A DNA stretch of 54,795 nucleotides, from the IMG/VR virus record IMGVR_UViG_3300045988_094320. One strand, given 5' to 3'. How positions within the stretch are numbered: position 1 is the stretch's first letter; the number at the start of each line of letters is the position of its first letter. The position numbers were made by a program, and so were the translations under genes. Shown here one piece after another: positions 862-52,486 of this stretch. The DNA comes from a virus. The notes beneath the pieces are model-generated. The model made no database searches, had not been told where the DNA came from, and saw nothing but the letters and a program-made list of their open reading frames with translations.

Positions 862-887
862 GGGCGGTCTACGGACTGCCCCTTTCC
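862..887 (+). terminator. Hairpin terminator/attenuator after the major tail gene
   Basis: GGGCGGTC-tacg-GACTGCCC (8 bp, one G:T) followed by a T-rich ctttcc tract. Confidence 0.5.
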
Positions 888-1279: not shown

Positions 1280-1668
1280 GAGATTTGCTTGAAAAAGAAG
1301 TATTTCCGCAGGCGTATGTAATGGGTGTTACGTGGGAACAGTTTTGGAAACTAAACCCACGTAAACTTGATTCTATTTTTGCCGGATACAAAGCCAAGCT
1401 AAAAGAAGATGATTATAAGAACTGGCTAAACGGTATTTATACGCAATCGGCTGTTTTTGTTTCGATAGACATAGCACTGAATGGCAGAAAATCTAAGAGC
1501 AAATATCTAAAACGACCGATTCTTGAAGAAATGGAAAATCAGCAAAATATGTCAGAGGAAGAAATGCAAAAGCAAAGAGAATTGTTTGTTGCAAAACTCT
1601 TGGCAATGCAAGCAAATTTCAATATAAATCATAGGGAGAAATCCAAAAATGAGCAAGAAAGTAATTGA
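1189..1668 (+). CDS. gpT-like -1 frame extension of the tail chaperone (fusion 926..1189 + 1189..1668)
   Basis: The track ORF 1285..1668 frame is -1 relative to 926..1279 and is open back to 1174. This is the classic G/GT arrangement upstream of a tape measure. Confidence 0.6.
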   Translation, partial: SRSQQDNGNGKCREYVGAGKRREKRKKQKLRDLLEKEVFPQAYVMGVTWEQFWKLNPRKLDSIFAGYKAKLKEDDYKNWLNGIYTQSAVFVSIDIALNGRKSKSKYLKRPILEEMENQQNMSEEEMQKQRELFVAKLLAMQANFNINHREKSKNEQESN

Positions 1669-2512
1669 TGTATCATCATATCAAGGTTCAATAAATTGGC
1701 GACTGGTAAAACAGTCAGGCATTGATGGCGCAATCTTAAAGATTATGCGGAAAAACCTTGCTAAAGATAAGTTTTTCGAGGTCAACTACAAAAACGCAGA
1801 AAATGCCGGTGTTCCTGTGATTGGCGTATACAACTACAGTTATGCGACTACAGTTGCAAAAGCAAAGGCGGATGCCAAGAAAGTATTAGAGCATCTAAAC
1901 GGAAGAAAAAAGACCGTATGGCTCGATGTAGAGGACAAGTGCCAACAGGGGCTTGGAGCGGCTCTTATAGGCATCATACGAGCTTACAGAGATATCATTG
2001 TTGCCGCAGGATATGACTTCGGTGTTTACACTGGATACGCATTTTATAACAAATACATTCTACCTTATGGCGGAGTAGATTGTAAGCTGTGGATTGCAAA
2101 ATACGGTATCAATGATGGCAAGTACAATGTCAACCGTCAGCCTGTGGTTAGCGGTAATATGGTCGGATGGCAGTACACGTCCAAAGGAACTGTAGGCGGC
2201 GTATATGGCAAAGTGGATTTAAGTATTTGGTATGAAGATATTGAAAACAATACCGCCGCTGTATCACATAGAAATAATTACCCGGAACCGCGCAGACTGT
2301 TGAAAAAAACAGTACCTTGTCAACGCGGAGAGGATGTTAAGTGGCTTCAATGCGAGCTTGTATATCACGGTTTTCTTGTACGCAAAGACATTGACGGAAT
2401 TTTTGGAAAAGATACGGCAAATGCGGTAGGAAGATTTCAGAAGAAAGTGGGAATAAAAGTCGATAAGAAGTGCGGAGTGGTAACAATCAGTTACCTAAAA
2501 GCAACTAATTGA
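1649..2512 (+). CDS. Endolysin: GH25 muramidase with a C-terminal PG_binding_1 domain
   Basis: The N-terminus DVSSYQGSINW...GIDGAILKI fits the GH25 signature. The C-terminus GEDVKWLQCEL...DGIFGKDTANAVGRFQKKVGI fits the peptidoglycan-binding-1 repeat. No signal peptide. The start overlaps the chaperone extension by 20 nt. Confidence 0.85.
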   Translation: MSKKVIDVSSYQGSINWRLVKQSGIDGAILKIMRKNLAKDKFFEVNYKNAENAGVPVIGVYNYSYATTVAKAKADAKKVLEHLNGRKKTVWLDVEDKCQQGLGAALIGIIRAYRDIIVAAGYDFGVYTGYAFYNKYILPYGGVDCKLWIAKYGINDGKYNVNRQPVVSGNMVGWQYTSKGTVGGVYGKVDLSIWYEDIENNTAAVSHRNNYPEPRRLLKKTVPCQRGEDVKWLQCELVYHGFLVRKDIDGIFGKDTANAVGRFQKKVGIKVDKKCGVVTISYLKATN

Positions 2513-2525
2513 CAACAAAATTTAG

Positions 2526-2556
2526 AGCGGTGTGGATTTCCATGCCGCTTTTTTTA
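2526..2556 (+). terminator. Intrinsic terminator between the lysin and the tape measure
   Basis: AGCGG-13 nt loop-(G)CCGCT followed by TTTTTTT. Confidence 0.6.
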
Positions 2557-2579: not shown

Positions 2580-5500
2580 ATGGCAGAAGTAGATAGCTTA
2601 GAGATTGCTATAAAAGCGCAGGCAACACAAGCAAATAACGCATTAGATAAACTGGTAAACAATCTTACTAGGCTGTCAAACTCTCTTATGAGCGTAAATA
2701 CAAGCGGTCTCAACGGTTTGTCAAATGGAGTAACAAAGCTGTCTAATGCTATGGCTGGAATCAGCACGGTAAAAACGGCAGATTTTACGAGAGTTGCTAA
2801 TGGAATCACAAAAATTTCAAGCATTGACACGGCTAATTTGAACCGCTCTGCATCTGCAATCGGTATGCTCGGAAAAGCCTTAACACCGCTGACCGCTTCT
2901 GGTGCATCTGACAGAGTTACAGCACTTGCAAAAGCGATTTCACAGCTTGGTTATAAGTCAAGCACAAAAGCCATTGACAATATACCTAAACTGGCTAAAG
3001 CTATGAAACAGCTTATTACAACGCTTTCCGGCGCACCAAAGGTAAGTCAAAATCTTATAGATATGACTAACGCGCTTGCACAATTTGCGCGTACTGGGGC
3101 ATCCGGCGGCAATGCGGCAAAGGCACTTGCGAATAACTTTACCTCTTTTGGTTCTACGGCAGTAAAAGCTAAAAAACATACGTTTTCACTAGCATCCGCT
3201 TTCGGAAAACTATACGCTTCATACTGGCTTCTGATTCGCGGAGCTGGGAAGTTAAAAGAAGCGATCAACATATCATCTGCTTTGACAGAAGTACAAAACG
3301 TAGTTGTCAATACGTTCGGGCAATATACAGATTCGCTTGAAAAATTCTCGAAAAATGCAATACAGCAGTATGGTATTTCTGAGTTGACTGCAAAGCAGAC
3401 AGCAAGTAGGTATCAGGCAATGGGTATCGCAATGGGAGTACCTATTCAGAAAATGTCTGATATGTCTATTGCGTTGACGAAGTTATCCGCTGATATGGCA
3501 TCTTTCTATAATGTAGAGCAAAGCCAAGTGCAGCAGAATTTGCAGTCTATTTTCACTGGCGAGACAGAACCAATGAGAAAATATGGTATCGACCTCACAA
3601 ATGCCACATTGAAAGAATGGGCTTTAAAAGAGGGTCTTGATGCGGATATTTCGTCTATGACGCAGATGGAAAAGACAATGCTTCGATACCAATACGTAAT
3701 GCAGAATACAGCGAATGTGCAGGGGGACTTCGCTAGGACTGCAGATACATGGGCGAACCAGCTTCGTATCTTGCGAGAGCAGTTTAAGGCGCTTGGGGCT
3801 ATTTGGGGCAATGCTTTTATCAATATGCTTAAACCACTTGTCAAGGCACTGAATACGGCTATGCAAGCTGTAATTAAGTTTTCTGAAACTGTTGTAAATG
3901 CGCTTGGGGTTATTTTTGGTTGGAAGATTGAAATGCAGTCCGGCGCAATAGCAGAAGATTACGACACGGCGGCTGGAAGTGCTGATGATTTAGCGGCAAA
4001 CACAGGGAAAGCGGCAGATAATGCTAAAAAGCTAAAACAGCAGTTGCAGGGCTTTGATAAGTTAAACAATCTTACAACAAACCAAGGCAGCGACAGCGGA
4101 ACTGGAAAGGGAAGCGGTGCTGGTGGCGCTACTGGCGGTGCATCTGGCGGCAATCTGAAATTCAATGTTAAGGAAACGGAAAGTTTTTACAAGAGCAAGA
4201 TAAAAACGCTTGAAGGACTTGGAAAGTATATCGGGAATAGCCTGTCAAAAGCTATGGAATCCATTAAATGGGATAAAGTATATAAGAAAGCAAAAGCGTT
4301 CGGTACAGGTCTTGCACAGTTTTTAAATGGTCTTATCAGTCCAAGACTTTTCGGAAATGTCGGAAAAACCATTGCTGGCGCACTTAACACAGCTATCTAT
4401 GCCGCGCTTTCATTCGGAACGACATTTAACTGGAAAAACTTAGGCAATTCGATTGCAAAAGGAATCAATAAGTTTTTTGACACGTTTGATTTCGCAGCAT
4501 TCGGAAAGACCGTCAATACATGGGTACATGGTATATGGACTACTCTTACTACGGCAATCAAGAAGATAAAGTGGGAAAATGTATTAAAAGGAATTACTGA
4601 TTTCCTAGGAGAACTTGATCTCGAAACAGTTTCAATTATTCTTGGTGTCATTACAATCAAAGGAATAAAAAAACTTCTGTTTTCTGAAAAATTCAAAAAA
4701 TGGTTGGGAGAAAAAGCATCAAAGGTAATTGTCAAAGCAATAGCTTCAAAATTGGGAGTAGAAGCGACTTGGTCTGTAGTAGGAAAAACTATTTTAACCA
4801 AGGTCGGCGGAATATTTGCAGGAATCGGCGCAAAAATTGGAGCCACAATAAACATGGCAATAGCTTCTGCTGGCGGTATGCAGGCAATAATTGCAGCAGG
4901 CACCTTAATAGCAGAAACATTATTCGCAGGAATAGCCGCGGCAATAGCAGGATGGAATTTAGGTCAGTGGCTAAATGAAAAACTAACAGGCGAAAAAATA
5001 GATATGTCATTCTCGGAGCAAATGACAGAAATCAAAAATTCCTTTTCTGATGGTTCGTGGAAAGAAGCGTTGAAACTTTGGGGCGACGATATCTACAACG
5101 GTTTTCTTGCTGTTTCAGAATCAGAAGACCAACTTATGAAGCCTGTTAAAGATGGGCTGAATGAAGTGAGAGGAATGTTCTCTGACGGTCAATTCGGAGA
5201 AGCTATGTCTCTTTGGGGGCAAGATATATACGATGGTTTCTTGTCAGTATCGCAGTCGCAAGATAATTTTATGAAGCCTTTTAAAGACAAGTACAATGAG
5301 GTAAAAGGTCTTTTTGCTGACGGACAGTTCGGCGCGGCTATGGGAGCATGGGGCGACGATATCAAACTGAAACTGAACAATGTAAAAGATAGTTTTCTGC
5401 TGACATGGGATAACATAAAGTTAGGCGTTAAAAGCGCATGGCAAGCTACGGTTGACGGTCTGAAAGAAATATGGAACAAATTCGCAACGTGGCTGAACGA

Positions 5501-5900
5501 GAAGCTATCGTTCGATATACCGCCAATCAATATTGCTGGCAAGGAATTATTCGGTGGCACACATATCGACCTCGGCAAAATACCGACTTTTGCAAGCGGC
5601 GGTTATGTTCCAAAGCAGTACAGCTTGCTCATGGCTGGCGAAAATGGTATACCAGAAATCGCAGGAACGGTAGGTGGAAAGACAGCGGTTGCCGGCGGCG
5701 CGGAAATCACGGGCATTAAAGAAGCAATCTTACAGGCATCAAGCAATGAAATGGCTCTACTGAGACAACAAAACACGCTACTGCAAGGTATTCTTGCTAA
5801 AGAGTTTGGCATCAGTCAGTCCGACGTAGGAAAAGCCGCTAGAAGTTATGCAAAGGACTATAACCAGCGGACAGGAAAAGACGCATACAGTTTCGCTTGA
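2580..5900 (+). CDS. Tail tape measure protein
   Basis: 1106 aa from ATG 2580 (RBS GGTGGAAG); the track ORF opens at 2532, inside the terminator. It has a TP901-type core (FYNVEQSQVQQNLQSIFTGETEPMRKYGIDL), a Gly-rich linker, a hydrophobic block and 45-aa tandem repeats. Confidence 0.9.
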   Translation: MAEVDSLEIAIKAQATQANNALDKLVNNLTRLSNSLMSVNTSGLNGLSNGVTKLSNAMAGISTVKTADFTRVANGITKISSIDTANLNRSASAIGMLGKALTPLTASGASDRVTALAKAISQLGYKSSTKAIDNIPKLAKAMKQLITTLSGAPKVSQNLIDMTNALAQFARTGASGGNAAKALANNFTSFGSTAVKAKKHTFSLASAFGKLYASYWLLIRGAGKLKEAINISSALTEVQNVVVNTFGQYTDSLEKFSKNAIQQYGISELTAKQTASRYQAMGIAMGVPIQKMSDMSIALTKLSADMASFYNVEQSQVQQNLQSIFTGETEPMRKYGIDLTNATLKEWALKEGLDADISSMTQMEKTMLRYQYVMQNTANVQGDFARTADTWANQLRILREQFKALGAIWGNAFINMLKPLVKALNTAMQAVIKFSETVVNALGVIFGWKIEMQSGAIAEDYDTAAGSADDLAANTGKAADNAKKLKQQLQGFDKLNNLTTNQGSDSGTGKGSGAGGATGGASGGNLKFNVKETESFYKSKIKTLEGLGKYIGNSLSKAMESIKWDKVYKKAKAFGTGLAQFLNGLISPRLFGNVGKTIAGALNTAIYAALSFGTTFNWKNLGNSIAKGINKFFDTFDFAAFGKTVNTWVHGIWTTLTTAIKKIKWENVLKGITDFLGELDLETVSIILGVITIKGIKKLLFSEKFKKWLGEKASKVIVKAIASKLGVEATWSVVGKTILTKVGGIFAGIGAKIGATINMAIASAGGMQAIIAAGTLIAETLFAGIAAAIAGWNLGQWLNEKLTGEKIDMSFSEQMTEIKNSFSDGSWKEALKLWGDDIYNGFLAVSESEDQLMKPVKDGLNEVRGMFSDGQFGEAMSLWGQDIYDGFLSVSQSQDNFMKPFKDKYNEVKGLFADGQFGAAMGAWGDDIKLKLNNVKDSFLLTWDNIKLGVKSAWQATVDGLKEIWNKFATWLNEKLSFDIPPINIAGKELFGGTHIDLGKIPTFASGGYVPKQYSLLMAGENGIPEIAGTVGGKTAVAGGAEITGIKEAILQASSNEMALLRQQNTLLQGILAKEFGISQSDVGKAARSYAKDYNQRTGKDAYSFA
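5043..5370 (+). repeat. In-frame 135-nt (45-aa) tandem repeat, about 2.4 copies, inside the tape measure
   Basis: FSDGSWKEALKLWGDDIYNGFLAVSESEDQLMKPVKDGLNEVRGM / FSDGQFGEAMSLWGQDIYDGFLSVSQSQDNFMKPFKDKYNEVKGL / FADGQFGAAMGAWGDDI... Confidence 0.85.
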
Positions 5901-5925
5901 TAGATTTTTCCCCTTGTGATATGAT
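5897..5925 (+). promoter_or_regulatory. Sigma70-type promoter with extended -10 for the moron gene
   Basis: TTGATA (5897-5902), 17-nt spacer, TG-a-TATGAT (5917-5925). It overlaps the tape-measure stop codon. Confidence 0.5.
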
Positions 5926-5946
5926 AAGAAAAAAATCACAAGGGGG
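5909..5946 (+). promoter_or_regulatory. 12-bp hairpin that sequesters the moron Shine-Dalgarno sequence
   Basis: TCCCCTTGTGAT (5909-5920) pairs perfectly with ATCACAAGGGGA (5935-5946). The 3' arm contains the SD AAGGGGGA, 8 nt before ATG 5955. Confidence 0.6.
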
Positions 5947-5954
5947 ATATAAAT

Positions 5955-6746
5955 ATGGCACTTATTACTTGCCCGGAATGCGGGAAAGAAGTATCAGACA
6001 AGGCGGCTACTTGCCCTAACTGTGGTTGCCCTTTGCAACAGTCACAACAGACAATTCAAGTCGAGGAATGGAAACCGCAGAAACCAAAGAAAATGAAGAA
6101 CAGTACATTGAGTACATGGGCGGCTGTATTAGCGTTTTTCACGTTTACAAGCCCTATTGGTTTTATTGTAGCCATAGTAGACTTAGCAAAAAAGGATAAA
6201 GAACACAAGCATACAGGTTCCTATTTTGCAATTATATTTTTTGCCTGTATTGTTTTGATGGTATCCTGCCCGAACAAGGACGATGAACCACAGAAAGTAG
6301 GAAGTGTTGAAACAAGTCAGCCTGCTACAACAGATACAAATACTTCTGCGGAATCTGCAAAAAGTAACATATTCCATGTAGGGGATGTGGTTGAAACAGA
6401 AGATTTCAGAATCACATATCTTGAATCGCAGGAATATACAAGCGACAACGAATTTTTACAGCCAAAAGACGGATACAAATACTGGAAATTCACATTTAAG
6501 TTTGAAAACATTTCAAACGATGTGAAGAATGTATCGAGTATAATGGATTGGGAATGTTATGCAGATAATTCAAAGGTAGATCAGACATATCTTGAAATGG
6601 ATAATGGTCTTGACGGTCAGTTATCCGCAGGACGTGAAACACAAGGCTCTTTGTTTTTTGAAGTACCGAACGATGTTCAGAATTTGGAACTTGAATATGC
6701 AATCAGCTATTATGGAAATGACAGAATAGTATTTGTCTCACAATAA
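5955..6746 (+). CDS. Membrane protein with an N-terminal zinc ribbon, TM segments and a C-terminal DUF4352-like beta domain (moron; candidate exclusion or surface protein)
   Basis: CPECG..CPNCGCP is followed by two hydrophobic stretches, and the C-terminus FRITYLE...YWKFTFKFENIS...GSLFFEVP resembles DUF4352. The gene is insulated by its own promoter and terminator between the tape measure and the distal tail gene. Confidence 0.6.
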   Translation: MALITCPECGKEVSDKAATCPNCGCPLQQSQQTIQVEEWKPQKPKKMKNSTLSTWAAVLAFFTFTSPIGFIVAIVDLAKKDKEHKHTGSYFAIIFFACIVLMVSCPNKDDEPQKVGSVETSQPATTDTNTSAESAKSNIFHVGDVVETEDFRITYLESQEYTSDNEFLQPKDGYKYWKFTFKFENISNDVKNVSSIMDWECYADNSKVDQTYLEMDNGLDGQLSAGRETQGSLFFEVPNDVQNLELEYAISYYGNDRIVFVSQ

Positions 6747-6760
6747 ATTGAATAACTTTT

Positions 6761-6790
6761 AAAGGCAGTCGAAATAGGCTGCCTTTTTTA
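6761..6790 (+). terminator. Strong intrinsic terminator after the moron
   Basis: AAAGGCAG-10 nt loop-CTGCCTTT followed by a T run. Confidence 0.8.
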
Positions 6791-6878
6791 TTTCAAAAAA
6801 TAATTCGGTGTTGAATTGGCATCTATCAGAAATGGTAGGTGCTTTTTTAATGCCTATTTTTTAAACAGGAGATTTACG

Positions 6879-7283
6879 ATGGCATACGCTGGATACCTTA
6901 TCAGAGTTGGAAATTATACAATCCCAAAGAAATACATGAGGGCAGAAAAATACGACGTAGTTCTTCACGGACAAGACTTGGATTCGTACCGTGACGCTAA
7001 CGGTCAGCTACAGCGTACAGCCTTGCAGCATACGGTTGTTGATGTAACTTTCTCTACTCCGCCTATGATGCATGAAGTGGTATGGAGAAACCTCATAGAC
7101 AGCATTAGAGCGCAGTATACGAACTCTATTGAGAAGAAGTGCACTGCATCGGTTTACGTGCCGGAAATAGGCGATTACAAGGTGCAGGACGTATATCTTC
7201 CTGATATCAAGACCAATATATACTATGCGGACGATCACGACATTATATACAACGAAATCGAACTGCAATTTATCGGGTATTAA
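6879..7283 (+). CDS. Small distal-tail (Dit-like) component
   Basis: 134 aa from ATG 6879 (RBS CAGGAG). It is the first gene after the tape measure/moron. Assigned by synteny only. Confidence 0.5.
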   Translation: MAYAGYLIRVGNYTIPKKYMRAEKYDVVLHGQDLDSYRDANGQLQRTALQHTVVDVTFSTPPMMHEVVWRNLIDSIRAQYTNSIEKKCTASVYVPEIGDYKVQDVYLPDIKTNIYYADDHDIIYNEIELQFIGY

Positions 7284-12624: not shown

Positions 12625-13368
12625 ATGTCAACTATAATGGGACTTGATTATTTGTACTTGATGGAAAGTGTTATAGATTCAACCGGAAAGACAGATTATG
12701 TTGTGGGTGTTAATCCTGCAAAAATTAAAGCCGCTTTAGGGTTAGAGGTAACTCAGCTGGAAGTGGATTCTACTCAATCAGCAGACACAAATTATCCTTA
12801 CAAATATCTAATTCATTACGCAAATAATAACAATGATGGAATTGTTATCCGAGTTTATAAAGGCAAAAATGGTATAATTGTTTCTCCATATGTAAACGGC
12901 GTTTTGAACTATTCAGAAAGTATTTTAAATATTGCATCAATTTCATCTACATCTCAGCTTGTCATGTATTACAAAAAAAGTGACGATTATGTAGTTACTG
13001 GATTTGCAAGAACCACTGATAATGTCAGGCTGCAAGTTGCGTTTATCAACTATAGCAATGTAGGAGACACAGAAAAGCAGAAATGTATCTTATTTTCAAG
13101 AAATGTATCATCAGAATTATATAAATACATTTTGCCGGGCGGAATATATAATTCTGCATCCAATAAGAACTCATCTATATCAAATGATATCGTCGCATTA
13201 TATCCTTTGATTGATGTGACTGGCAGAATAGTGATATACAAGGCGTATATATCGGCGATAAATAAAAGTATTCTTGACACGTTTTATTTTGTGGTTGATG
13301 GGAAAGCATATATATCACTTATTAGTGGTAATGCATCGGCAAATAAGGTTTGTATTCGGATAAATTAA
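12625..13368 (+). CDS. Hypothetical protein, last gene of the late strand block
   Basis: 247 aa with RBS AGAGAGGT. Very AT-rich coding with no recognisable motif. Confidence 0.45.
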   Translation: MSTIMGLDYLYLMESVIDSTGKTDYVVGVNPAKIKAALGLEVTQLEVDSTQSADTNYPYKYLIHYANNNNDGIVIRVYKGKNGIIVSPYVNGVLNYSESILNIASISSTSQLVMYYKKSDDYVVTGFARTTDNVRLQVAFINYSNVGDTEKQKCILFSRNVSSELYKYILPGGIYNSASNKNSSISNDIVALYPLIDVTGRIVIYKAYISAINKSILDTFYFVVDGKAYISLISGNASANKVCIRIN

Positions 13369-32926: not shown

Positions 32927-34057
32927 ATGGGAAAAGACCTAAGAGGTAAGGAAATAGGGCAGGGTTTGTCCCAAAGGAAAGATGGGTACTATGTCGCTAG
33001 GTATACTGACAGGTACGGAAAGCGCATACAAAAACTGTTCTTGAAAATGAGAGAAGCCCAAAAATGGCTTTCAGAAAATAAGTATGAGGAGCAACACTCA
33101 AATATAGACTTTCCATCGGACATGATTGTTGAATCGTGGTTCCAATACTGGATTGCAATAAAAGAGAAAACAGTAAGACCGAATACCGTCAGAAATTACA
33201 GAGAGCGTTATAACAGGAATATAAAGCCGATAATAGGGAATAAATTATTAAGAGATGTAAACAGTATTCATTGTCAGCAAATATTTAACAAAATGGATGA
33301 TGAAGGATACAGGAAATCGACAATATATCAGACAAGAATCGCATTATACAATATGCTGCAATATGCATTTGACAACGATGTAATAAGAAAAAATCCATGT
33401 ACGAGGTCTGTTATATCTGATATGGGAAAAGAATCCGCGAAGAAAGAAGCACTCACAATAGAAACACAGAAAAAATTCTTGGAGTATGCTTCCGGTATGT
33501 CTTATGAATATCAATATAGATTTATTCTACAGACTGGATTGAGAACCGGGGAGCTTGCAGGTTTAAAGTGGGAAGATATAGACTTTAAAGGCAGAACACT
33601 TACGGTCAGCAGAAGTTTGGAGTATAGACATTCAGCAGGTGAATGGAGAGAGGGGCAGCCGAAGAGTAAATCCGGGTACAGGACTATACCCCTGACAGAT
33701 GAAGCAATTTATATCCTAAATAAGCAAAAAGAGAAAAATGCGCATCTGAAATTTGTCGAAATGCAATGGAAAGACAGAATATTTTTGTGCAAAACCGGAG
33801 CACCTGTTAAGAACAGCACATATGACACGGCGTTATTTAAAATATGCGACAAGGCAAAAATTCCTAGATTCTCAATGCATGTATTGCGTCATACATTCGC
33901 TACGAGATGTATAGAAGCCGGAATGATGCCGAAAACTCTTCAAACGATTTTAGGACATTCAAATATCGGAATAACTATGAATCTTTACGTGCACACAACA
34001 GACGACCAGAAGAAAATAGAAATTGAAAAAGTGGCAAAAGCACTAAAAGTTGTGTAA
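32927..34057 (+). CDS. int: Tyrosine integrase
   Basis: 376 aa with ..GLRTGELAGLKWEDIDF.. and HVLRHTFATRCIEAGMMPKTLQTILGHSNIGITMNLYVH (R..HxxR..Y catalytic signature). Confidence 0.95.
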   Translation: MGKDLRGKEIGQGLSQRKDGYYVARYTDRYGKRIQKLFLKMREAQKWLSENKYEEQHSNIDFPSDMIVESWFQYWIAIKEKTVRPNTVRNYRERYNRNIKPIIGNKLLRDVNSIHCQQIFNKMDDEGYRKSTIYQTRIALYNMLQYAFDNDVIRKNPCTRSVISDMGKESAKKEALTIETQKKFLEYASGMSYEYQYRFILQTGLRTGELAGLKWEDIDFKGRTLTVSRSLEYRHSAGEWREGQPKSKSGYRTIPLTDEAIYILNKQKEKNAHLKFVEMQWKDRIFLCKTGAPVKNSTYDTALFKICDKAKIPRFSMHVLRHTFATRCIEAGMMPKTLQTILGHSNIGITMNLYVHTTDDQKKIEIEKVAKALKVV

Positions 34058-39954: not shown

Positions 39955-39997
39955 GGCACAAAATACTATTGACATGTAAGGCACAAAATGATATCAT
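39952..39997 (+). promoter_or_regulatory. Two more TAAGGCACAAA boxes and a second boxed promoter
   Basis: Boxes at 39952 and 39977. TTGACA (39969-74), 17-nt spacer containing a box, TATCAT (39992-97). Confidence 0.6.
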
Positions 39998-40364: not shown

Positions 40365-40444
40365 AACAATACAGCTAAAAACAAGGCTGCCAAAACAGCT
40401 ACAAGCCGCATAAAAACTGGATTTTGACAAAAAGCAGATAGGGT

Positions 40445-40515
40445 ATACATACCCTATACATACCCTATGCATACTGTATCCATACTGTATACATAGTGTA
40501 TCCATACCGTATACG
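40445..40515. repeat. 11-bp phased iterons AT(A/C/G)CATA(C/G)(C/T)(C/G)T, 6.5 copies
   Basis: atacataccct atacataccct atgcatactgt atccatactgt atacatagtgt atccataccgt atacg. Confidence 0.9.
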
Positions 40516-47839: not shown

Positions 47840-48271
47840 ATGACAACGAAAGAATATTTGAATCAAATAGGAACATTGAATGATCTGATAAATGAAAAGC
47901 TGTTAGAATTATCACAGTACAAAATTAGACATATGAGCATATCTTCCGTTGAAAACAAAGAACGCGTTCAGACAAGCCCTAATTTTGATAAATATACTGA
48001 TATTGTGAATGAAATTATAGAAAAGGAAAAGGAAATCGATTACTTGACAGATAGATATGTCAACTTAAAAGAAAAAATAAAAATGCAAATAAGAATGCTG
48101 GATAATCCATCTTACAGAAAATTGCTTTTTGACAAATATATTTTTTTCAAAAGCGTACCTCAAATTGCTACAGAAAGAAATATAACAACAAGTGCAGTAA
48201 AAAAGGCACAAAAAACAGCAATCAAAGAATTTGAAAAAAAACATGGCACAATATATTGTATTTATAGTTGA
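47840..48271 (+). CDS. DUF1492 / sigma-70 region-4-like transcriptional regulator
   Basis: EYLNQIGTLNDLINEKLLEL...VQTSPNFDKYTDIVNEIIEKEKEID...LDNPSYRKLLFDKYIFFKSVPQIATERNITTSAVKKAQKTAIKEF. Confidence 0.65.
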   Translation: MTTKEYLNQIGTLNDLINEKLLELSQYKIRHMSISSVENKERVQTSPNFDKYTDIVNEIIEKEKEIDYLTDRYVNLKEKIKMQIRMLDNPSYRKLLFDKYIFFKSVPQIATERNITTSAVKKAQKTAIKEFEKKHGTIYCIYS

Positions 48272-48296
48272 CTTCCACCCCTATATGTGGTATTAT
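48268..48296 (+). promoter_or_regulatory. Near-consensus promoter inside the morphogenesis block
   Basis: TTGACT (48268-73), 17-nt spacer, TG-g-TATTAT (-10 at 48291-96). Confidence 0.65.
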
Positions 48297-48355
48297 GGCA
48301 ATGTGAAAAAGTATAAGTGTTTTCTCATATCCCCTCGTAACAAGTGTTTGAAAAG

Positions 48356-48381
48356 GCATCGCAGTAATGCGGTGCTTTTTT
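48356..48381 (+). terminator. Intrinsic terminator about 60 nt downstream of the 48268 promoter
   Basis: GCATCGCA-gtaa-TGCGGTGC (one G:T) followed by TTTTTT. Confidence 0.7.
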
Positions 48382-48394
48382 CATGGAGAATTTT

Positions 48395-48586
48395 ATGAAA
48401 GAAAAGAAGATATATTGTCCTAAATGCGGTCGCAAAGTGGCTACATACGATGGACGATCCCAAATAGATATCGTTGTGAAATGTAAAAAATGCAACAAAA
48501 AAATCGTGTACAGGGTTGCGACAGGAGATATTGAAGTAAAGCCGTTACCAGTAAGACAGACAACAAGCGGAATGACGTTTATCTGA
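48395..48586 (+). CDS. Com-like zinc-ribbon protein
   Basis: 63 aa from ATG 48395 (RBS GGAGA). IYCPKCGRKVA...VVKCKKCNKKIVY resembles Mu Com-type regulators. Confidence 0.5.
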   Translation: MKEKKIYCPKCGRKVATYDGRSQIDIVVKCKKCNKKIVYRVATGDIEVKPLPVRQTTSGMTFI

Positions 48587-48599
48587 TGCAGAGGTGTGT

Positions 48600-50042
48600 A
48601 TGAACAGAAGATTTTTACAGGACATCGTAAAAGGATGTTACGGTAGAAAAATTGCATATACGAATGTTGAGCAGATAACAGAAGCTAATGTCGTACAAGT
48701 AATCGGAAACTGCATCGGTGCATTTTATTACAACAAAACAGTAATAAAATATCTATGGGACTACTACAAGGGAGATCAACCGATTCTGTATAGACAAAAG
48801 GTAACAAACGAAGATATCACAAACAGAATCGTGGAAAATCATGCCTACGAAATTGTTCAGTTCAAAGTGGGTCAGACATACGGAGAGCCGATACAATTCA
48901 TTAGCCGAAAGGATGATAAAGTAATCAACAAGGCTGTGGATATGCTCAATGATTTTATGGCAGATGCTAATAAACAAGAAAAGGATATCAAAGCTGGCGA
49001 ATGGCAATCTGCAACTGGTACATCATTCAAGGCAATACAGCCGTTCATAGGGGAAGTACCGTTGAGAATTGTGGCACCTACTCCAATGAACACTTTTGCA
49101 ATTTATCAAGAGGGAACAGAAGAAGCTCTTTTAGTAGTTCAAGAGTTGAAAGATGAAAACGGTAAAATGTATAAACTGGCGTTTTCTGATACAAAATCTT
49201 TCAAAATAGTTGATGGAAAACTGGAATACTCAAAATTGCATACATATGGCGCGATTCCGATTGTTGAATTTCCGAACAATCACGAAAGGATATCGGATAT
49301 CGAACTTGTTATTGGAATGCTGGATGCAATCAATAATATGCAGTCTAATCGAATGGACGGAGTAGAGCAGTTTGTACAATACTGGATCAAATTTATAAAT
49401 TGCGACATAGATCAAGAAGAATTTGAAAAAATGAAAGAAAGCCATGCGCTTACTGTAAAATCAAATAATTCTGATAATAAGTCCGATGTGGATATTATGA
49501 CGCAGGAACTGGATCAAACACAGTGCCAAGTGGCTAAAGACGACTTATGGAATAATACGTTGTCAATTTTGGCAATTCCAAATAAACAGGGAAACACCGG
49601 CGGAGATACACAGGGAGCCGTCGAACTTCGTAATGGATGGGATTTTTCAAAGACAAGAGCAAAATTGAAAGACCCTATTGTAAAATCGGCAGAAAAGAAG
49701 CTGGCATATGTTGCATTGAATGTCCTGAAAATTGCAGGAATTGATCTGAAATTATCTATAAGAGATTTTAATGTCCAGATCAATCACAGTCCGCAAGATA
49801 ATATGTACACTAAGGCACAGACGCTTACAGTATTGTTGCAAGCCGGCATACATCCTCTTATTGCCATAACTACTGTTGGTCTTTGGGGAGACGCGGAAAA
49901 GACATTTAACTTATCAAAACCGTATCTCGAAAATCTATATAAGACTATTGATGATGCAGAAGCGCAGCAGGAAAAGGCAAAAGAAATCGTAAATCAAATG
50001 AATAAACAGCAGAAAAAGCAGTTACCGAGTAATAATCGGTAG
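48600..50042 (+). CDS. Portal protein (SPP1 gp6-like)
   Basis: 480 aa from ATG 48600. YLWDYYKGDQPILYRQK...NRIVENHAYEIVQFKVGQTYGEPIQF is the typical portal N-terminal signature. Confidence 0.9.
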   Translation: MNRRFLQDIVKGCYGRKIAYTNVEQITEANVVQVIGNCIGAFYYNKTVIKYLWDYYKGDQPILYRQKVTNEDITNRIVENHAYEIVQFKVGQTYGEPIQFISRKDDKVINKAVDMLNDFMADANKQEKDIKAGEWQSATGTSFKAIQPFIGEVPLRIVAPTPMNTFAIYQEGTEEALLVVQELKDENGKMYKLAFSDTKSFKIVDGKLEYSKLHTYGAIPIVEFPNNHERISDIELVIGMLDAINNMQSNRMDGVEQFVQYWIKFINCDIDQEEFEKMKESHALTVKSNNSDNKSDVDIMTQELDQTQCQVAKDDLWNNTLSILAIPNKQGNTGGDTQGAVELRNGWDFSKTRAKLKDPIVKSAEKKLAYVALNVLKIAGIDLKLSIRDFNVQINHSPQDNMYTKAQTLTVLLQAGIHPLIAITTVGLWGDAEKTFNLSKPYLENLYKTIDDAEAQQEKAKEIVNQMNKQQKKQLPSNNR

Positions 50043-50050
50043 CTGTTTTT
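50019..50050 (+). terminator. Terminator-like hairpin overlapping the portal stop codon
   Basis: CAGTTACCGA-7 nt-TCGGTAGCTG (one G:T) followed by TTTTTATTTT. Confidence 0.5.
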
Positions 50051-52231: not shown

Positions 52232-52486
52232 TTGCTTATGAAATACGACCATGCTGTTAAATATAACGGTACTTGGTATGCGCCTTTTGAAGAAATCAAT
52301 GAGGGAGTAGTTGATTCTACTCCCTCTGATAATTTCATGAATAAGCCGGTATATACCAAGACGGAAATAAACAGAATGAGCACAGCGGATCTGCAATCGC
52401 TAGCGAAATCAGAAGGTATCGAAGATGCAGAAGAAAAGACGGGTACAGAGTTAAAACAAATCTTAATCAACAGGTTTGCATCGTAG
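52232..52486 (+). CDS. Small protein with a Rho-N/SAP-like helix-extended-helix motif
   Basis: 84 aa, with MSTADLQSLAKSEGIEDAEEKTGTELKQILINRF. Confidence 0.45.
   Translation: MLMKYDHAVKYNGTWYAPFEEINEGVVDSTPSDNFMNKPVYTKTEINRMSTADLQSLAKSEGIEDAEEKTGTELKQILINRFAS

What the first reader, a model, noticed from the sequence alone, without database searches (positions are those of the whole stretch)
5897..6790. Self-contained moron whose SD is masked only in read-through late mRNA
Between the tape measure and the distal tail gene lies a zinc-ribbon/TM/DUF4352-like membrane protein gene. It has its own promoter (TTGATA, 17-nt spacer, TG-a-TATGAT, 5897-5925) and a strong terminator (6761-6790).

A perfect 12-bp hairpin (5909-5920 with 5935-5946) buries the SD AAGGGGGA. 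The predicted transcription start of the moron promoter (about 5932) lies between the two arms.

Transcripts from the moron promoter would therefore lack the 5' arm and be translatable, for example in the lysogen. Late read-through mRNA would contain both arms and keep the gene silent. This would be a neat way to restrict a conversion or exclusion gene to the lysogenic state.
Basis: partly seen in the sequence, partly recalled or inferred. Interest (0 to 1): 0.6.

Follow-up and report, generated by a model that had tools for sequence, protein, structure and literature searches.

The report
Insulated accessory-gene cassette in phage tail operon
A gut prophage carries an add-on membrane-protein gene between two tail genes, and its promoter lies inside an RNA hairpin that hides the ribosome-binding site only in transcripts arriving from upstream; this is the trick known from phage T4 and insertion sequences, seen here in a temperate-phage accessory gene.

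Summary
The -35 TTGATA (5897-5902) overlaps the tape-measure (TMP) stop. A 17-nt spacer leads to TGaTATGAT (-10 at 5920-5925). A 13-bp stem (5908-5920 with 5935-5947, one G.U) buries the SD AAGGGGGA. Two tandem terminators follow the gene, not one.

This ribosome-binding site is the most occluded of 91 crude gene calls in the window. Opening it costs 12-15 kcal/mol in read-through RNA and about 1-4 kcal/mol in RNA started at the cassette's own promoter.

About 85 of 92 related phages and prophages (Lachnospiraceae hosts) with a readable junction join TMP directly to the next tail gene, so this is a true insertion. Close relatives keep the same promoter, hairpin and terminators but carry a different 76-aa gene.

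Three diverged lineages (L118, L131, L038) rebuild the same design from different sequences. Homologous genes placed elsewhere sit behind a terminator and have ordinary ribosome-binding sites.

The cargo is a zinc-ribbon, membrane-helix and DUF4352 beta-sandwich envelope protein. A role in phage exclusion is plausible but untested.

The mechanism matches T4 genes e, soc, 49 and I-TevI, and IS10 read-through protection. No transcript data could be obtained, and lysogen-only expression is not shown. An earlier scan note describes a similar hairpin in an E. coli prophage.

The parts
2581..5900 (+). Tape measure protein gene. The ORF is open from GTG 2532; the probable start is ATG 2581, behind the SD GGTGGAAG. 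It is the presumed source of late read-through transcripts.
   Evidence: PHROG 1535 tail length tape measure, E 1.7e-62; sequence
5897..5902 (+). -35 hexamer TTGATA, overlapping the TMP stop codon TGA at 5898-5900
   Evidence: invariant in 11 sequence variants of close relatives
5917..5925 (+). TG-extended -10 element, TGaTATGAT. The predicted transcription start is about 5931-5934, inside the hairpin loop.
   Evidence: It is TATGAT or TATTAT in relatives, and the TG is always kept.
5908..5920 (+). 5' arm of the hairpin (anti-SD, UUCCCCUUGUGAU). It lies wholly in the promoter spacer plus the first base of the -10.
5935..5947 (+). 3' arm of the hairpin (AUCACAAGGGGGA), which contains the Shine-Dalgarno sequence AAGGGGGA at 5940-5947
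   Evidence: SD opening costs 12.5 kcal/mol in read-through RNA and 2.1 in promoter-initiated RNA.
5955..6746 (+). Cargo gene, 263 aa: N-terminal zinc ribbon, two predicted hydrophobic helices (52-78, 87-103), a low-complexity linker, and a C-terminal DUF4352/DUF5067 beta-sandwich
   Evidence: Pfam; AlphaFold2 model; Foldseek matches to Firmicute lipoprotein and secreted beta-sandwich proteins YcdA, YxkC, YjhA and MPT63
6761..6792 (+). Intrinsic terminator T1 (10-bp stem, 6-nt loop, T run)
   Evidence: conserved in all relatives whatever the cargo
6818..6849 (+). Second intrinsic terminator T2 (11-bp stem, T6)
6879..7283 (+). DUF6711 tail gene. It holds the position of a distal tail protein and directly follows TMP in most relatives.
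   Evidence: Pfam PF20458, E 3.5e-38; junction survey

Best explanation
The region 5897-6849 is a self-contained accessory-gene cassette (a moron). It is inserted at the tape-measure/DUF6711 junction of a temperate siphophage of about 54.8 kb that infects human-gut Lachnospiraceae.

The cassette has four parts: a host sigma-A-type promoter with a TG-extended -10, a short leader, a cargo gene and two tandem terminators.

The anti-Shine-Dalgarno strand of a 13-bp RNA hairpin is encoded inside the promoter spacer. This has two consequences:
- RNA polymerase that arrives from the tape-measure gene in the late operon transcribes both arms. The hairpin closes over the SD and the cargo is poorly translated.
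- RNA polymerase that starts at the cassette's own promoter begins in the loop, about 5932. It makes a 23-nt leader that lacks the 5' arm, so the SD is open.

The hairpin therefore acts as a translational insulator. It uncouples the dose of the cargo protein from strong late transcription. Combined with occlusion of the promoter by read-through polymerases, it should lower expression late in infection. Expression from the prophage or early in infection is left intact.

The cargo is a membrane-anchored envelope protein. Its most likely job is to protect the lysogen from other phages or to alter its cell surface.

Shown here: the anatomy, its statistical rarity, conservation, cassette swapping, recurrence in diverged lineages and the thermodynamic contrast. 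Inferred: promoter activity, the start site, the existence of read-through RNA, differential translation and the protein's function.
For: 1. Anatomy and rarity. This is the most occluded ribosome-binding site of 91 crude gene calls. The hairpin lies in the top 0.2% of local folds. TG-extended promoters are enriched (6 observed against 1.6 expected), and this promoter is of that class.

2. Thermodynamics across 10 relatives. SD opening costs 7.5-15.7 kcal/mol in read-through RNA and 0.7-4.0 in RNA starting 7 nt after the -10.

3. True insertion. About 85 of the 92 surveyed DUF6711 loci (phage contigs and Lachnospiraceae MAG prophages) in which a TMP end could be located have the TMP stop 9-84 nt before the DUF6711 start. 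The window family has a 978-nt insert.

4. Cassette swap. L012, L013, L014, L017, L029 and L033 keep the promoter, hairpin, SD and ATG (homology up to window 5958) and both terminators (homology from window 6742). Between them they carry a different 76-aa zinc-ribbon ORF.

5. RNA-type variation. The pair 5916-5939 is G-C, G-U or A-U in different relatives. C/U changes opposite the G run keep pairing. In all, 94.9% of cells are paired, against 50-62% when partners are slid. The G.U pairs make the structure specific to the + strand RNA.

6. Independent rebuilds of the design in the same slot:
- L118: ATGACA-17-TGaTATATT, 16-bp stem over the SD, opening energy 21.9 long against 5.4 short, z -4.8.
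- L131: TTGATA-17-TGgTATCAT, 23-bp stem, 22.5 against 4.3, z -6.2.
- L038: TTGAAA-17-TGgTAATAT, 13-bp stem over the AUG, 12.6 against 1.8, z -3.1.
All of these exceed the maximum (10.3) seen for 92 control DUF6711 ribosome-binding sites.

7. Contrast with other positions. Homologous cargo genes elsewhere in phage genomes, and in L155 after a long upstream ORF on a short contig (L007, L008, L040, L155), are preceded by an intrinsic terminator and a TGgTATAAT promoter. Their ribosome-binding sites are ordinary, at 6.3-7.8 kcal/mol. Transcriptional or translational insulation therefore seems to be used as alternatives.

8. Temperate lifestyle. The window has a tyrosine integrase (32927..34057), a KilAC/Bro antirepressor and a CI-like repressor on the minus strand, 60 bp from a TG-extended promoter. 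Relatives sit in MAG contigs of up to 323 kb.

9. Precedent. In T4 genes e, soc, 49 and I-TevI, long transcripts sequester the SD or AUG, while transcripts from a promoter in the 5' strand of the hairpin are translated (PMC3014915, section 29).
Against: - There is no experimental or transcriptomic evidence for promoter activity, the start site or read-through RNA.
- Covariation within the close family is not statistically significant: 107 of 500 shuffles reach the observed score, with only one clear compensatory pair.
- One relative, L001, carries a C-to-A mismatch in the stem, which lowers the opening energy to 7.5 kcal/mol.
- Several promoter-bearing cargoes in the same slot show weak or no sequestration: L129 5.3, L154 5.0 and L134 7.2 kcal/mol. 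The design is therefore recurrent but not obligatory.
- The two strong terminators after the cargo mean late transcription must pass terminators anyway. Why no upstream terminator is used here is unexplained.
- A constitutive sigma-A promoter would also fire in lytic growth, so strict lysogen-only expression does not follow.
Confidence: 0.6

Rival explanations
1. The promoter-like motif is not functional. The gene would then be expressed only from late operon mRNA, and the hairpin would simply hold translation of a potentially harmful membrane protein at a low level throughout. It would be a constitutive translational damper, not a switch between two transcripts.
For: - Consensus promoter matches are common in A+T-rich DNA: 30 matches of at least 10/12 against 25 expected.
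- The -35 overlaps coding sequence and the stop codon, so part of its conservation could come from the TMP gene.
- No transcript data are available.
Against: - The TG-extended class is enriched (6 against 1.6), and one such site lies just upstream of the CI-like repressor's divergent partner.
- A TGnTAnnnT element at 17 nt from a -35-like hexamer recurs in every diverged hairpin-bearing lineage, and the hairpin follows it rather than the TMP stop (L038).
- The -10 lies in the unpaired loop yet keeps its key positions.
- Homologs elsewhere have terminator, then TGgTATAAT, then gene.
Confidence: 0.12
2. The hairpin is a translational-coupling device. Ribosomes terminating at the TMP stop codon would melt the base of the stem, where the anti-SD lies, so the cargo would be translated from late mRNA in proportion to TMP translation.
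For: The stem starts only 7 nt (window), about 5 nt (L118) or about 1 nt (L131) after the TMP stop, and the anti-SD sits at the stop-proximal base of the stem.
Against: - With the stop codon in the A site, a ribosome covers or unwinds mRNA only to about +13 to +15 from the first P-site base. This is established ribosome-footprint knowledge. That reaches about 5907-5909, so at most 1-2 of the 13 pairs would open in the window.
- In L038 the stem lies 30 nt beyond the stop but still overlaps the promoter's -10. The hairpin therefore follows the promoter, not the stop codon.
- Coupling needs no promoter, yet one is conserved.
Confidence: 0.1
3. The stem-loop is mainly an RNA processing or stability element, or a weak attenuator, at the 3' end of the TMP message. 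Its overlap with the SD would be incidental.
For: - It is a stable hairpin directly after a long gene.
- The late operon holds several hairpins after genes.
- L110 has a terminator-like hairpin at this position.
Against: - No U tract follows the stem.
- In four independent sequence versions the 3' arm always covers the SD or AUG, and the 5' arm always lies at or upstream of the -10.
- At 13 bp, the stem is shorter than usual RNase III substrates (general knowledge).
Confidence: 0.08
4. The inverted repeat is a DNA operator. A dimeric repressor would bind the two 13-bp half-sites that flank the -10 and start site, and would switch the cassette's promoter on or off.
For: The inverted repeat is centred on a promoter, and the phage encodes HTH regulators.
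Against: - Symmetry is kept only as RNA pairing on the + strand. There are many G.U cells, which would be mismatches of symmetry in DNA.
- Arm sequences differ completely between lineages, and the spacing between arms varies: 5, 14, 18 and 40 nt. That does not fit a fixed protein dimer.
- The centre-to-centre distance of 27 bp is not a whole number of helical turns.
Confidence: 0.05

Closest known systems
Phage T4 genes e (lysozyme), soc, 49 and I-TevI; also mobE of phage Aeh1 (reviewed in PMC3014915, section 29)
   Same: - An RNA hairpin sequesters the SD and/or AUG in long transcripts that read in from upstream.
[quoted passage not shown]
- For gene e, the review reports a 100-fold effect.
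   Different: - In T4 the silent RNAs are early or middle and the active ones come from phage late promoters (gp55). Here the silent RNA would be the late operon read-through, and the active one would come from a host sigma-A-type promoter with a TG-extended -10.
- The phage here is temperate and infects Firmicutes.
- The gene is an exchangeable accessory cassette, not a core lysis, capsid or nuclease gene.
- Nothing has been tested experimentally here.
IS10/IS50 protection from external read-through transcription
   Same: A mobile unit shields translation of its gene from transcripts that start outside it. It does so by pairing the ribosome-binding site with a sequence that lies upstream of its own start site.
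   Different: Those are a transposase gene in an insertion sequence. This is a phage accessory gene inside a structural operon. There is no sequence relationship.
Morons of HK97 and lambda-like phages, for example the HK97 gene 15 superinfection-exclusion moron in the tail operon (Juhala et al. 2000 and Cumby et al. 2012, from my own knowledge and earlier scan notes)
   Same: - An extra gene with its own promoter and terminator sits between tail genes.
- It is absent from relatives.
- It encodes a small membrane protein and is presumed to be expressed from the prophage.
   Different: - The slot is different (TMP/DUF6711, not chaperone/TMP), as are the host phylum and the protein family.
- I know of no description of a ribosome-binding-site-sequestering hairpin nested in the promoter for those morons.
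Mpr of Mycobacterium smegmatis and DUF4352 proteins of temperate mycobacteriophages (PMC9262609, PMC12596739)
   Same: Membrane-bound proteins with a C-terminal DUF4352 domain. Mpr gives resistance to phage D29, and escape mutants map to a minor tail protein. The phage-encoded DUF4352 proteins occur in temperate phages.
   Different: - The N-terminal part here is a zinc ribbon, not the Mpr nuclease region.
- No sequence relationship beyond the Pfam domain was tested.
- The nearest structural matches are Firmicute lipoproteins and secreted proteins.
- No defence activity has been shown, and there is no PADLOC hit.

Membership tests
Moron (Hendrix/Juhala sense) | Extra gene present at a junction where related phages have none | tested here: met
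   About 85 of the 92 surveyed DUF6711 loci with a locatable TMP end have TMP and DUF6711 9-84 nt apart. The window family has a 978-nt insert.
Moron (Hendrix/Juhala sense) | Own promoter upstream | tested here: inconclusive
   A strong motif, TTGATA-17-TGaTATGAT, is conserved and recurs in other lineages. No activity or 5' end data exist.
Moron (Hendrix/Juhala sense) | Own terminator downstream | tested here: met
   Two canonical intrinsic terminators at 6761-6792 and 6818-6849 are conserved in all relatives. This is at the sequence level only.
Moron (Hendrix/Juhala sense) | Base composition different from the flanks | tested here: inconclusive
   GC is 0.34-0.41 in the cassette and 0.42-0.47 in the flanks, a modest dip.
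Promoter-nested RBS-sequestering hairpin (T4 e/soc/49/I-TevI type) | A hairpin includes the SD and/or start codon | tested here: met
   The 3' arm 5935-5947 contains the SD at 5940-5947. Opening costs 12.5-14.6 kcal/mol.
Promoter-nested RBS-sequestering hairpin (T4 e/soc/49/I-TevI type) | A promoter placed so that its transcripts lack the 5' strand of the hairpin | tested here: met
   The 5' arm lies in the spacer plus the first base of the -10, so any start from this -10 is downstream of it. The same geometry holds in L118, L131 and L038. Promoter function itself is untested.
Promoter-nested RBS-sequestering hairpin (T4 e/soc/49/I-TevI type) | Longer transcripts from upstream promoters run into the gene | not testable with these tools
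   This is inferred. There is no terminator between the TMP stop and the gene, and TMP and DUF6711 are adjacent in relatives. No RNA data exist.
Promoter-nested RBS-sequestering hairpin (T4 e/soc/49/I-TevI type) | Long transcripts are poorly translated and short ones well translated | not testable with these tools
   Only the thermodynamic prediction is available.
DUF4352 (PF11611) / DUF5067 (PF16729) domain proteins | Profile match above Pfam's gathering score | tested here: met
   DUF4352 scores 58.9 bits (cut-off 25.9) and DUF5067 39.4 bits (cut-off 27). The model's beta-sandwich matches YcdA, YxkC, YjhA and MPT63.
Mpr-type phage-resistance protein | N-terminal nuclease region plus TM plus DUF4352, with demonstrated phage resistance | tested here: not met
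   The N-terminus is a zinc ribbon. There is no PADLOC match and no functional data. Only the C-terminal domain family is shared.
Temperate phage | Integrase and repressor module; relatives integrated in bacterial genomes | tested here: met
   Phage_integrase, E 3.6e-30; ANT/Bro antirepressor; CI-like repressor PHROGs. Relatives lie on Lachnospiraceae MAG contigs of up to 323 kb.

The most novel reading that the evidence does not exclude
The TMP/DUF6711 junction of Lachnospiraceae prophages may be a hot spot for exchangeable envelope-protein genes. Their expression module would be a conserved 'translational insulator', with an anti-SD written into the spacer of a sigma-A promoter. This would make prophage-state expression blind to late transcription.

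The insulator may be needed because the DUF4352 membrane protein acts on tape-measure-dependent DNA entry. If made together with the phage's own tape measure, it would poison the phage's own tail assembly or its progeny.
Probability: 0.15. Interest if true: 0.7.

Novelty: new variant of a known kind. Interest (0 to 1): 0.5.

Why it matters
Accessory genes of prophages shape how gut bacteria resist other phages. How such genes stay correctly dosed while sitting inside operons that are transcribed massively during lytic growth is seldom addressed.

This case offers a concrete, testable answer for an abundant but little-studied group, the Lachnospiraceae prophages of the human gut. A promoter is nested in a hairpin that hides the ribosome-binding site, and this layout was rebuilt in several lineages.

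The case also marks the TMP/DUF6711 junction as a place to look for new envelope-acting exclusion genes. The principle itself is not new, since it is known from T4 and IS10. The gain is in scope and in a usable design rule, not in a new mechanism.

Tried and rejected
- The window's own assembly is not held.
- GenBank phage collection: no useful relative, only one 85-nt match.
- Exact-pattern scan of IMG/VR for the regulatory region returned only the nine contigs already known.
- A profile of the two-helix cargo type found no further IMG/VR lineages.
- The first genome-contig scan with a single protein found nothing. The alignment-based scan worked.
- Rfam: only sub-threshold matches driven by the terminators.
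- PADLOC: no match for any of ten cargo proteins.
- PDB by sequence: nothing for the cargo or for DUF6711.
- Formal covariation test on nine close variants: not significant. One row (L004) is misaligned by one column, which accounts for most of the 'unpaired' cells.
- The repeat finder with an exact-seed inverted-repeat search did not rank the hairpin among its 25 longest.
- L154 (P0004, 49% identical cargo, same slot) has an 11-bp hairpin around its -10 but no clear SD sequestration.
- Complex prediction was not used. No binding claim is made.
- Membrane topology is unresolved. Two predicted helices with a basic loop do not fit simply with a cytoplasmic zinc ribbon and an extracytoplasmic beta-sandwich.
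Full report
**Observation**

- TTGATA at 5897-5902 contains the tape-measure stop codon (TGA, 5898-5900).
- A 17-nt spacer follows. TG at 5917-5918 precedes A5919 and then TATGAT at 5920-5925. The scan lists this site (10/12, TG present).
- Bases 5909-5920 pair with 5935-5946. One of these pairs is a G.U wobble. The adjacent U5908-A5947 pair extends the stem to 13 bp, with a 14-nt loop.
- RNAfold gives this stem as the minimum-energy and centroid structure (z -3.5; 1 of 200 shuffles folds as well). The hairpin alone is -19.5 kcal/mol.
- The SD AAGGGGGA (5940-5947) lies in the 3' arm, 7 nt before ATG 5955.
- The ORF 5955..6746 (263 aa) has Zn_Ribbon_1 and DUF4352/DUF5067.
- A canonical terminator follows at 6761-6786.

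**Is it more than chance?**

- Among 27,375 overlapping 46-nt windows of the + strand, the hairpin ranks about ninth after overlapping windows are collapsed (top 0.2%). Most of the stronger folds are terminators.
- I made 91 crude gene calls and computed the energy needed to open positions -16 to +3, with 120 nt of upstream context. This gene ranks first, at 14.6 kcal/mol (median 5.1, sd 2.9).
- Promoter matches of at least 10/12 are not enriched in general (30 against 25). Those with a TG extension are enriched: 6 against 1.6 +/- 1.4. All six are on the + strand.
- One of the six (14189) lies 60 bp from the 5' end of the minus-strand CI-like repressor gene, and another (39969) lies next to the second block of minus-strand ORFs. 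The cassette's promoter therefore belongs to the class most likely to be real in this phage.

**Context**

- The window looks like a whole siphophage genome of about 54.8 kb, read almost entirely on one strand. It holds major tail, chaperone, TMP and tail genes, the large terminase, a tyrosine integrase, a KilAC/Bro antirepressor and a CI-like repressor. It is therefore temperate.
- Near-identical contigs of 53-55 kb occur in IMG/VR and in human-gut assemblies.
- More distant relatives of the DUF6711 gene lie on contigs of Roseburia and other Lachnospiraceae MAGs, up to 323 kb long. This names the host group and shows integration.

**It is a true insertion, and the cassette is modular**

- In 92 of the 99 surveyed DUF6711 loci a long upstream ORF (the TMP) could be located. 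In about 85 of these its stop lies 9-84 nt before the DUF6711 start. The window family has 978 nt there.
- In L012, L013, L014, L017, L029 and L033, DNA homology to the window runs through the promoter, hairpin, SD and ATG up to base 5958. It resumes at 6742, just before the terminators. In between lies a different 76-aa ORF encoding a zinc-ribbon protein with a glycine-rich hydrophobic core.
- The expression signals are thus a conserved socket, and the coding sequence is exchangeable.

**Conservation of the hairpin**

- Eleven sequence variants of the regulatory region were found.
- The pair 5916-5939 is G-C in the window, G-U in six variants and A-U in L035.
- C/U changes in the 5' arm opposite the G run stay paired as G.U. 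Only L001 has a mismatch.
- On a nine-row alignment, 94.9% of cells pair, against 50-62% when partners are slid. However, the covariation score is not significant (107 of 500 shuffles). The close family alone does not prove an RNA structure.
- The many G.U pairs do argue for RNA of the + strand and against a DNA palindrome.

**Recurrence in diverged lineages**

This is the strongest evidence. Other cargo-bearing TMP/DUF6711 slots were examined. Opening energies are given as read-through RNA against promoter-started RNA.

| Locus | Cargo | Promoter | Stem | Opening energy (kcal/mol) | Fold z |
|---|---|---|---|---|---|
| L118 | zinc ribbon, two helices, DUF5067 | ATGACA-17-TGaTATATT | 16 bp; 5' arm in the spacer, 3' arm covers GAGGGGGA | 21.9 / 5.4 | -4.8 |
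| L131 | zinc-ribbon protein | TTGATA-17-TGgTATCAT | 23 bp | 22.5 / 4.3 | -6.2 |
| L038 | protein 48% identical to the window's | TTGAAA-17-TGgTAATAT | 13 bp; overlaps the -10 and covers the AUG | 12.6 / 1.8 | -3.1 |

- In L038 the intergenic sequence is unrelated to the window's.
- All three opening energies, and those of the window family (14.6 and 17.8), exceed the maximum of 10.3 seen for 92 control DUF6711 ribosome-binding sites (median 5.5).
- Loop lengths differ (5, 14, 18 and 40 nt) and so do the arm sequences. The topology is constant.
- In L038 the stem lies 30 nt beyond the TMP stop but still sits on the promoter. The hairpin therefore follows the promoter and not the stop codon.
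- The design is not universal. L129, L154 and L134 have TG-extended promoters but ordinary or weakly occluded ribosome-binding sites. L110, L117, L121 and L135 lack a clear promoter.

**Contrast with the same gene family elsewhere**

Homologs in other positions, and L155 after a long upstream ORF on a short contig (L007, L008, L040, L155), are each preceded by an intrinsic terminator and a TGgTATAAT promoter. Their ribosome-binding sites are ordinary, at 6.3-7.8 kcal/mol. Shielding from upstream transcription is thus achieved either by a terminator or, in this slot, by hiding the ribosome-binding site.

**Mechanism proposed**

- The 5' arm lies within the spacer and the first base of the -10. 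Any transcript from this promoter must therefore lack it. With a start about 7 nt after the -10 (5931-5934), the leader is about 23 nt and the SD is open.
- SD opening costs 12-15 kcal/mol in read-through RNA and 0.7-4 in the short RNA, across ten relatives.
- Read-through from TMP is inferred. No terminator lies between the TMP stop and the gene, and TMP and DUF6711 are contiguous in relatives.
- I read the hairpin as a translational insulator that uncouples cargo dose from late transcription. Together with occlusion of the promoter by elongating polymerases, it should turn expression down late in infection.
A sigma-A-type promoter should also work early in infection.

**Rivals**

- Non-functional promoter with a constitutive damper (0.12). 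This is countered by the recurrence of TG-extended promoters at fixed geometry and by conservation of the -10 inside an unpaired loop.
- Translational coupling to TMP (0.10). Established ribosome footprints mean a terminating ribosome reaches only about 5907-5909, which is 1-2 pairs. L038 places the stem 30 nt from the stop.
- Processing or stability element, or attenuator (0.08). There is no U tract, and the 3' arm always lies on the SD or AUG.
- DNA operator (0.05). G.U-only symmetry, variable spacing and unrelated arm sequences argue against it.

**The cargo**

- The AlphaFold2 model has mean pLDDT 69, rising to 79-91 over most of the C-terminal domain. It shows a small N-terminal ribbon, helices at 52-78 and 87-103, and a beta-sandwich at 139-261.
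- Foldseek matches Firmicute lipoproteins and secreted proteins: B. subtilis YcdA, YxkC and YjhA, a C. difficile beta-sandwich, an S. aureus lipoprotein and M. tuberculosis MPT63. The domain is therefore most likely extracytoplasmic.
- Most homologs have a zinc ribbon, one helix and DUF4352. The window type has an extra helix, which leaves the topology unresolved.
- At least 414 homologs exist, mostly on phage-sized contigs from gut samples.
- The only studied DUF4352 membrane protein, Mpr of M. smegmatis, gives resistance to phage D29, and escape mutations lie in a minor tail protein. DUF4352 proteins also occur in temperate mycobacteriophages (PMC9262609; PMC12596739).
- This makes an exclusion or defence role plausible, at perhaps 35-40%. 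However, the N-terminal region differs, no PADLOC model matches and nothing has been tested.
- Other cargoes in the slot are also envelope proteins: a lipoprotein in L134, multi-pass membrane proteins in L121 and DUF5067 in L129.

**Comparison with what is known**

- The logic is that of T4 genes e, soc, 49 and I-TevI (and mobE of Aeh1). Long transcripts sequester the initiation region, while a promoter in the 5' strand of the hairpin gives translatable RNA (PMC3014915, section 29).
- From my own knowledge, not checked here, it is also the logic by which IS10 and IS50 shield transposase translation from outside transcription.
- The differences here are the temporal sense (late read-through silent), a host-type TG-extended promoter, a temperate Firmicute phage, and an exchangeable accessory gene in a structural operon.
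- I found no paper that describes this for a moron. The library is limited, so absence there is weak evidence.
I did not check it.

**Verdict**

- It is a new variant of a known kind of control, of moderate interest.

Noticed in passing
window 1649-2551: A GH25 muramidase plus PG_binding_1 gene (287 aa, endolysin PHROGs) sits between the tail chaperone G/T genes and the tape measure gene. Its start overlaps the end of the upstream ORF. A strong terminator (2524-2551) lies just before the probable TMP start (ATG 2581). A lysin inside the tail module, at the classic HK97 gene-15 slot, is unusual. The 247-aa ORF at 12625..13368, where a lysis gene would be expected, has no family match.
   Followed up: partly
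L012 3643-3873 (also L013, L014, L017, L029, L033): This is the alternative cargo in the same expression socket. It is a 76-aa protein with CxxxxC and CxxC knuckles at its two ends and a glycine-rich hydrophobic middle. It has no Pfam or PADLOC match.
   Followed up: partly
L038 3882-3971: Directly after the DUF4352 gene lies a start-less open frame ending ...KFTCDDCGKIFD*. It resembles the C-terminus of the 76-aa alternative cargo (...KFVCSKCGKVFEKKI*). It may be a remnant showing that the small gene was the earlier occupant of the slot.
   Followed up: no
L038 4031-5676: Two further cargo genes sit between the DUF4352 gene and DUF6711. One is 303 aa (precomputed Pfam DUF4747, not reproduced in my scan) and the other is a 240-aa membrane protein. 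A promoter-like TTGATT-16-TATAAT lies before them. Another contig with the same DUF4352 protein lacks them.
   Followed up: no
L002, L014, L029, L037, between the two terminators (equivalent to window about 6793): A roughly 54-nt insert made of GAGTT(A/G)A-like repeats lies between terminators T1 and T2 in some relatives. It occurs independently of which cargo they carry.
   Followed up: no
window 48268-48586: Between the terminase region and the portal gene lies a TG-extended promoter (TTGACT-17-TGgTATTAT). About 50 nt further on is a terminator-like hairpin (48352-48382). A 63-aa zinc-ribbon ORF starts at 48396. This looks like a leader-attenuator arrangement or a small RNA followed by a small gene.
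   Followed up: no
window 40437-40504 and 40633-40681: There are clusters of overlapping imperfect palindromes and AT-rich repeats (GGGTATACATACCCTAT-like units). They lie downstream of a TG-extended promoter at 39969 and may be an origin or operator array.
   Followed up: no
window 862-881, 2524-2551, 6761-6849, 48352-48382, 50014-50050, 52295-52326: Many intrinsic-terminator-like hairpins lie inside the late structural operon on the coding strand. Late transcription must therefore read through terminators, either by an antitermination factor or by leaky termination. No late regulator could be named.
   Followed up: partly
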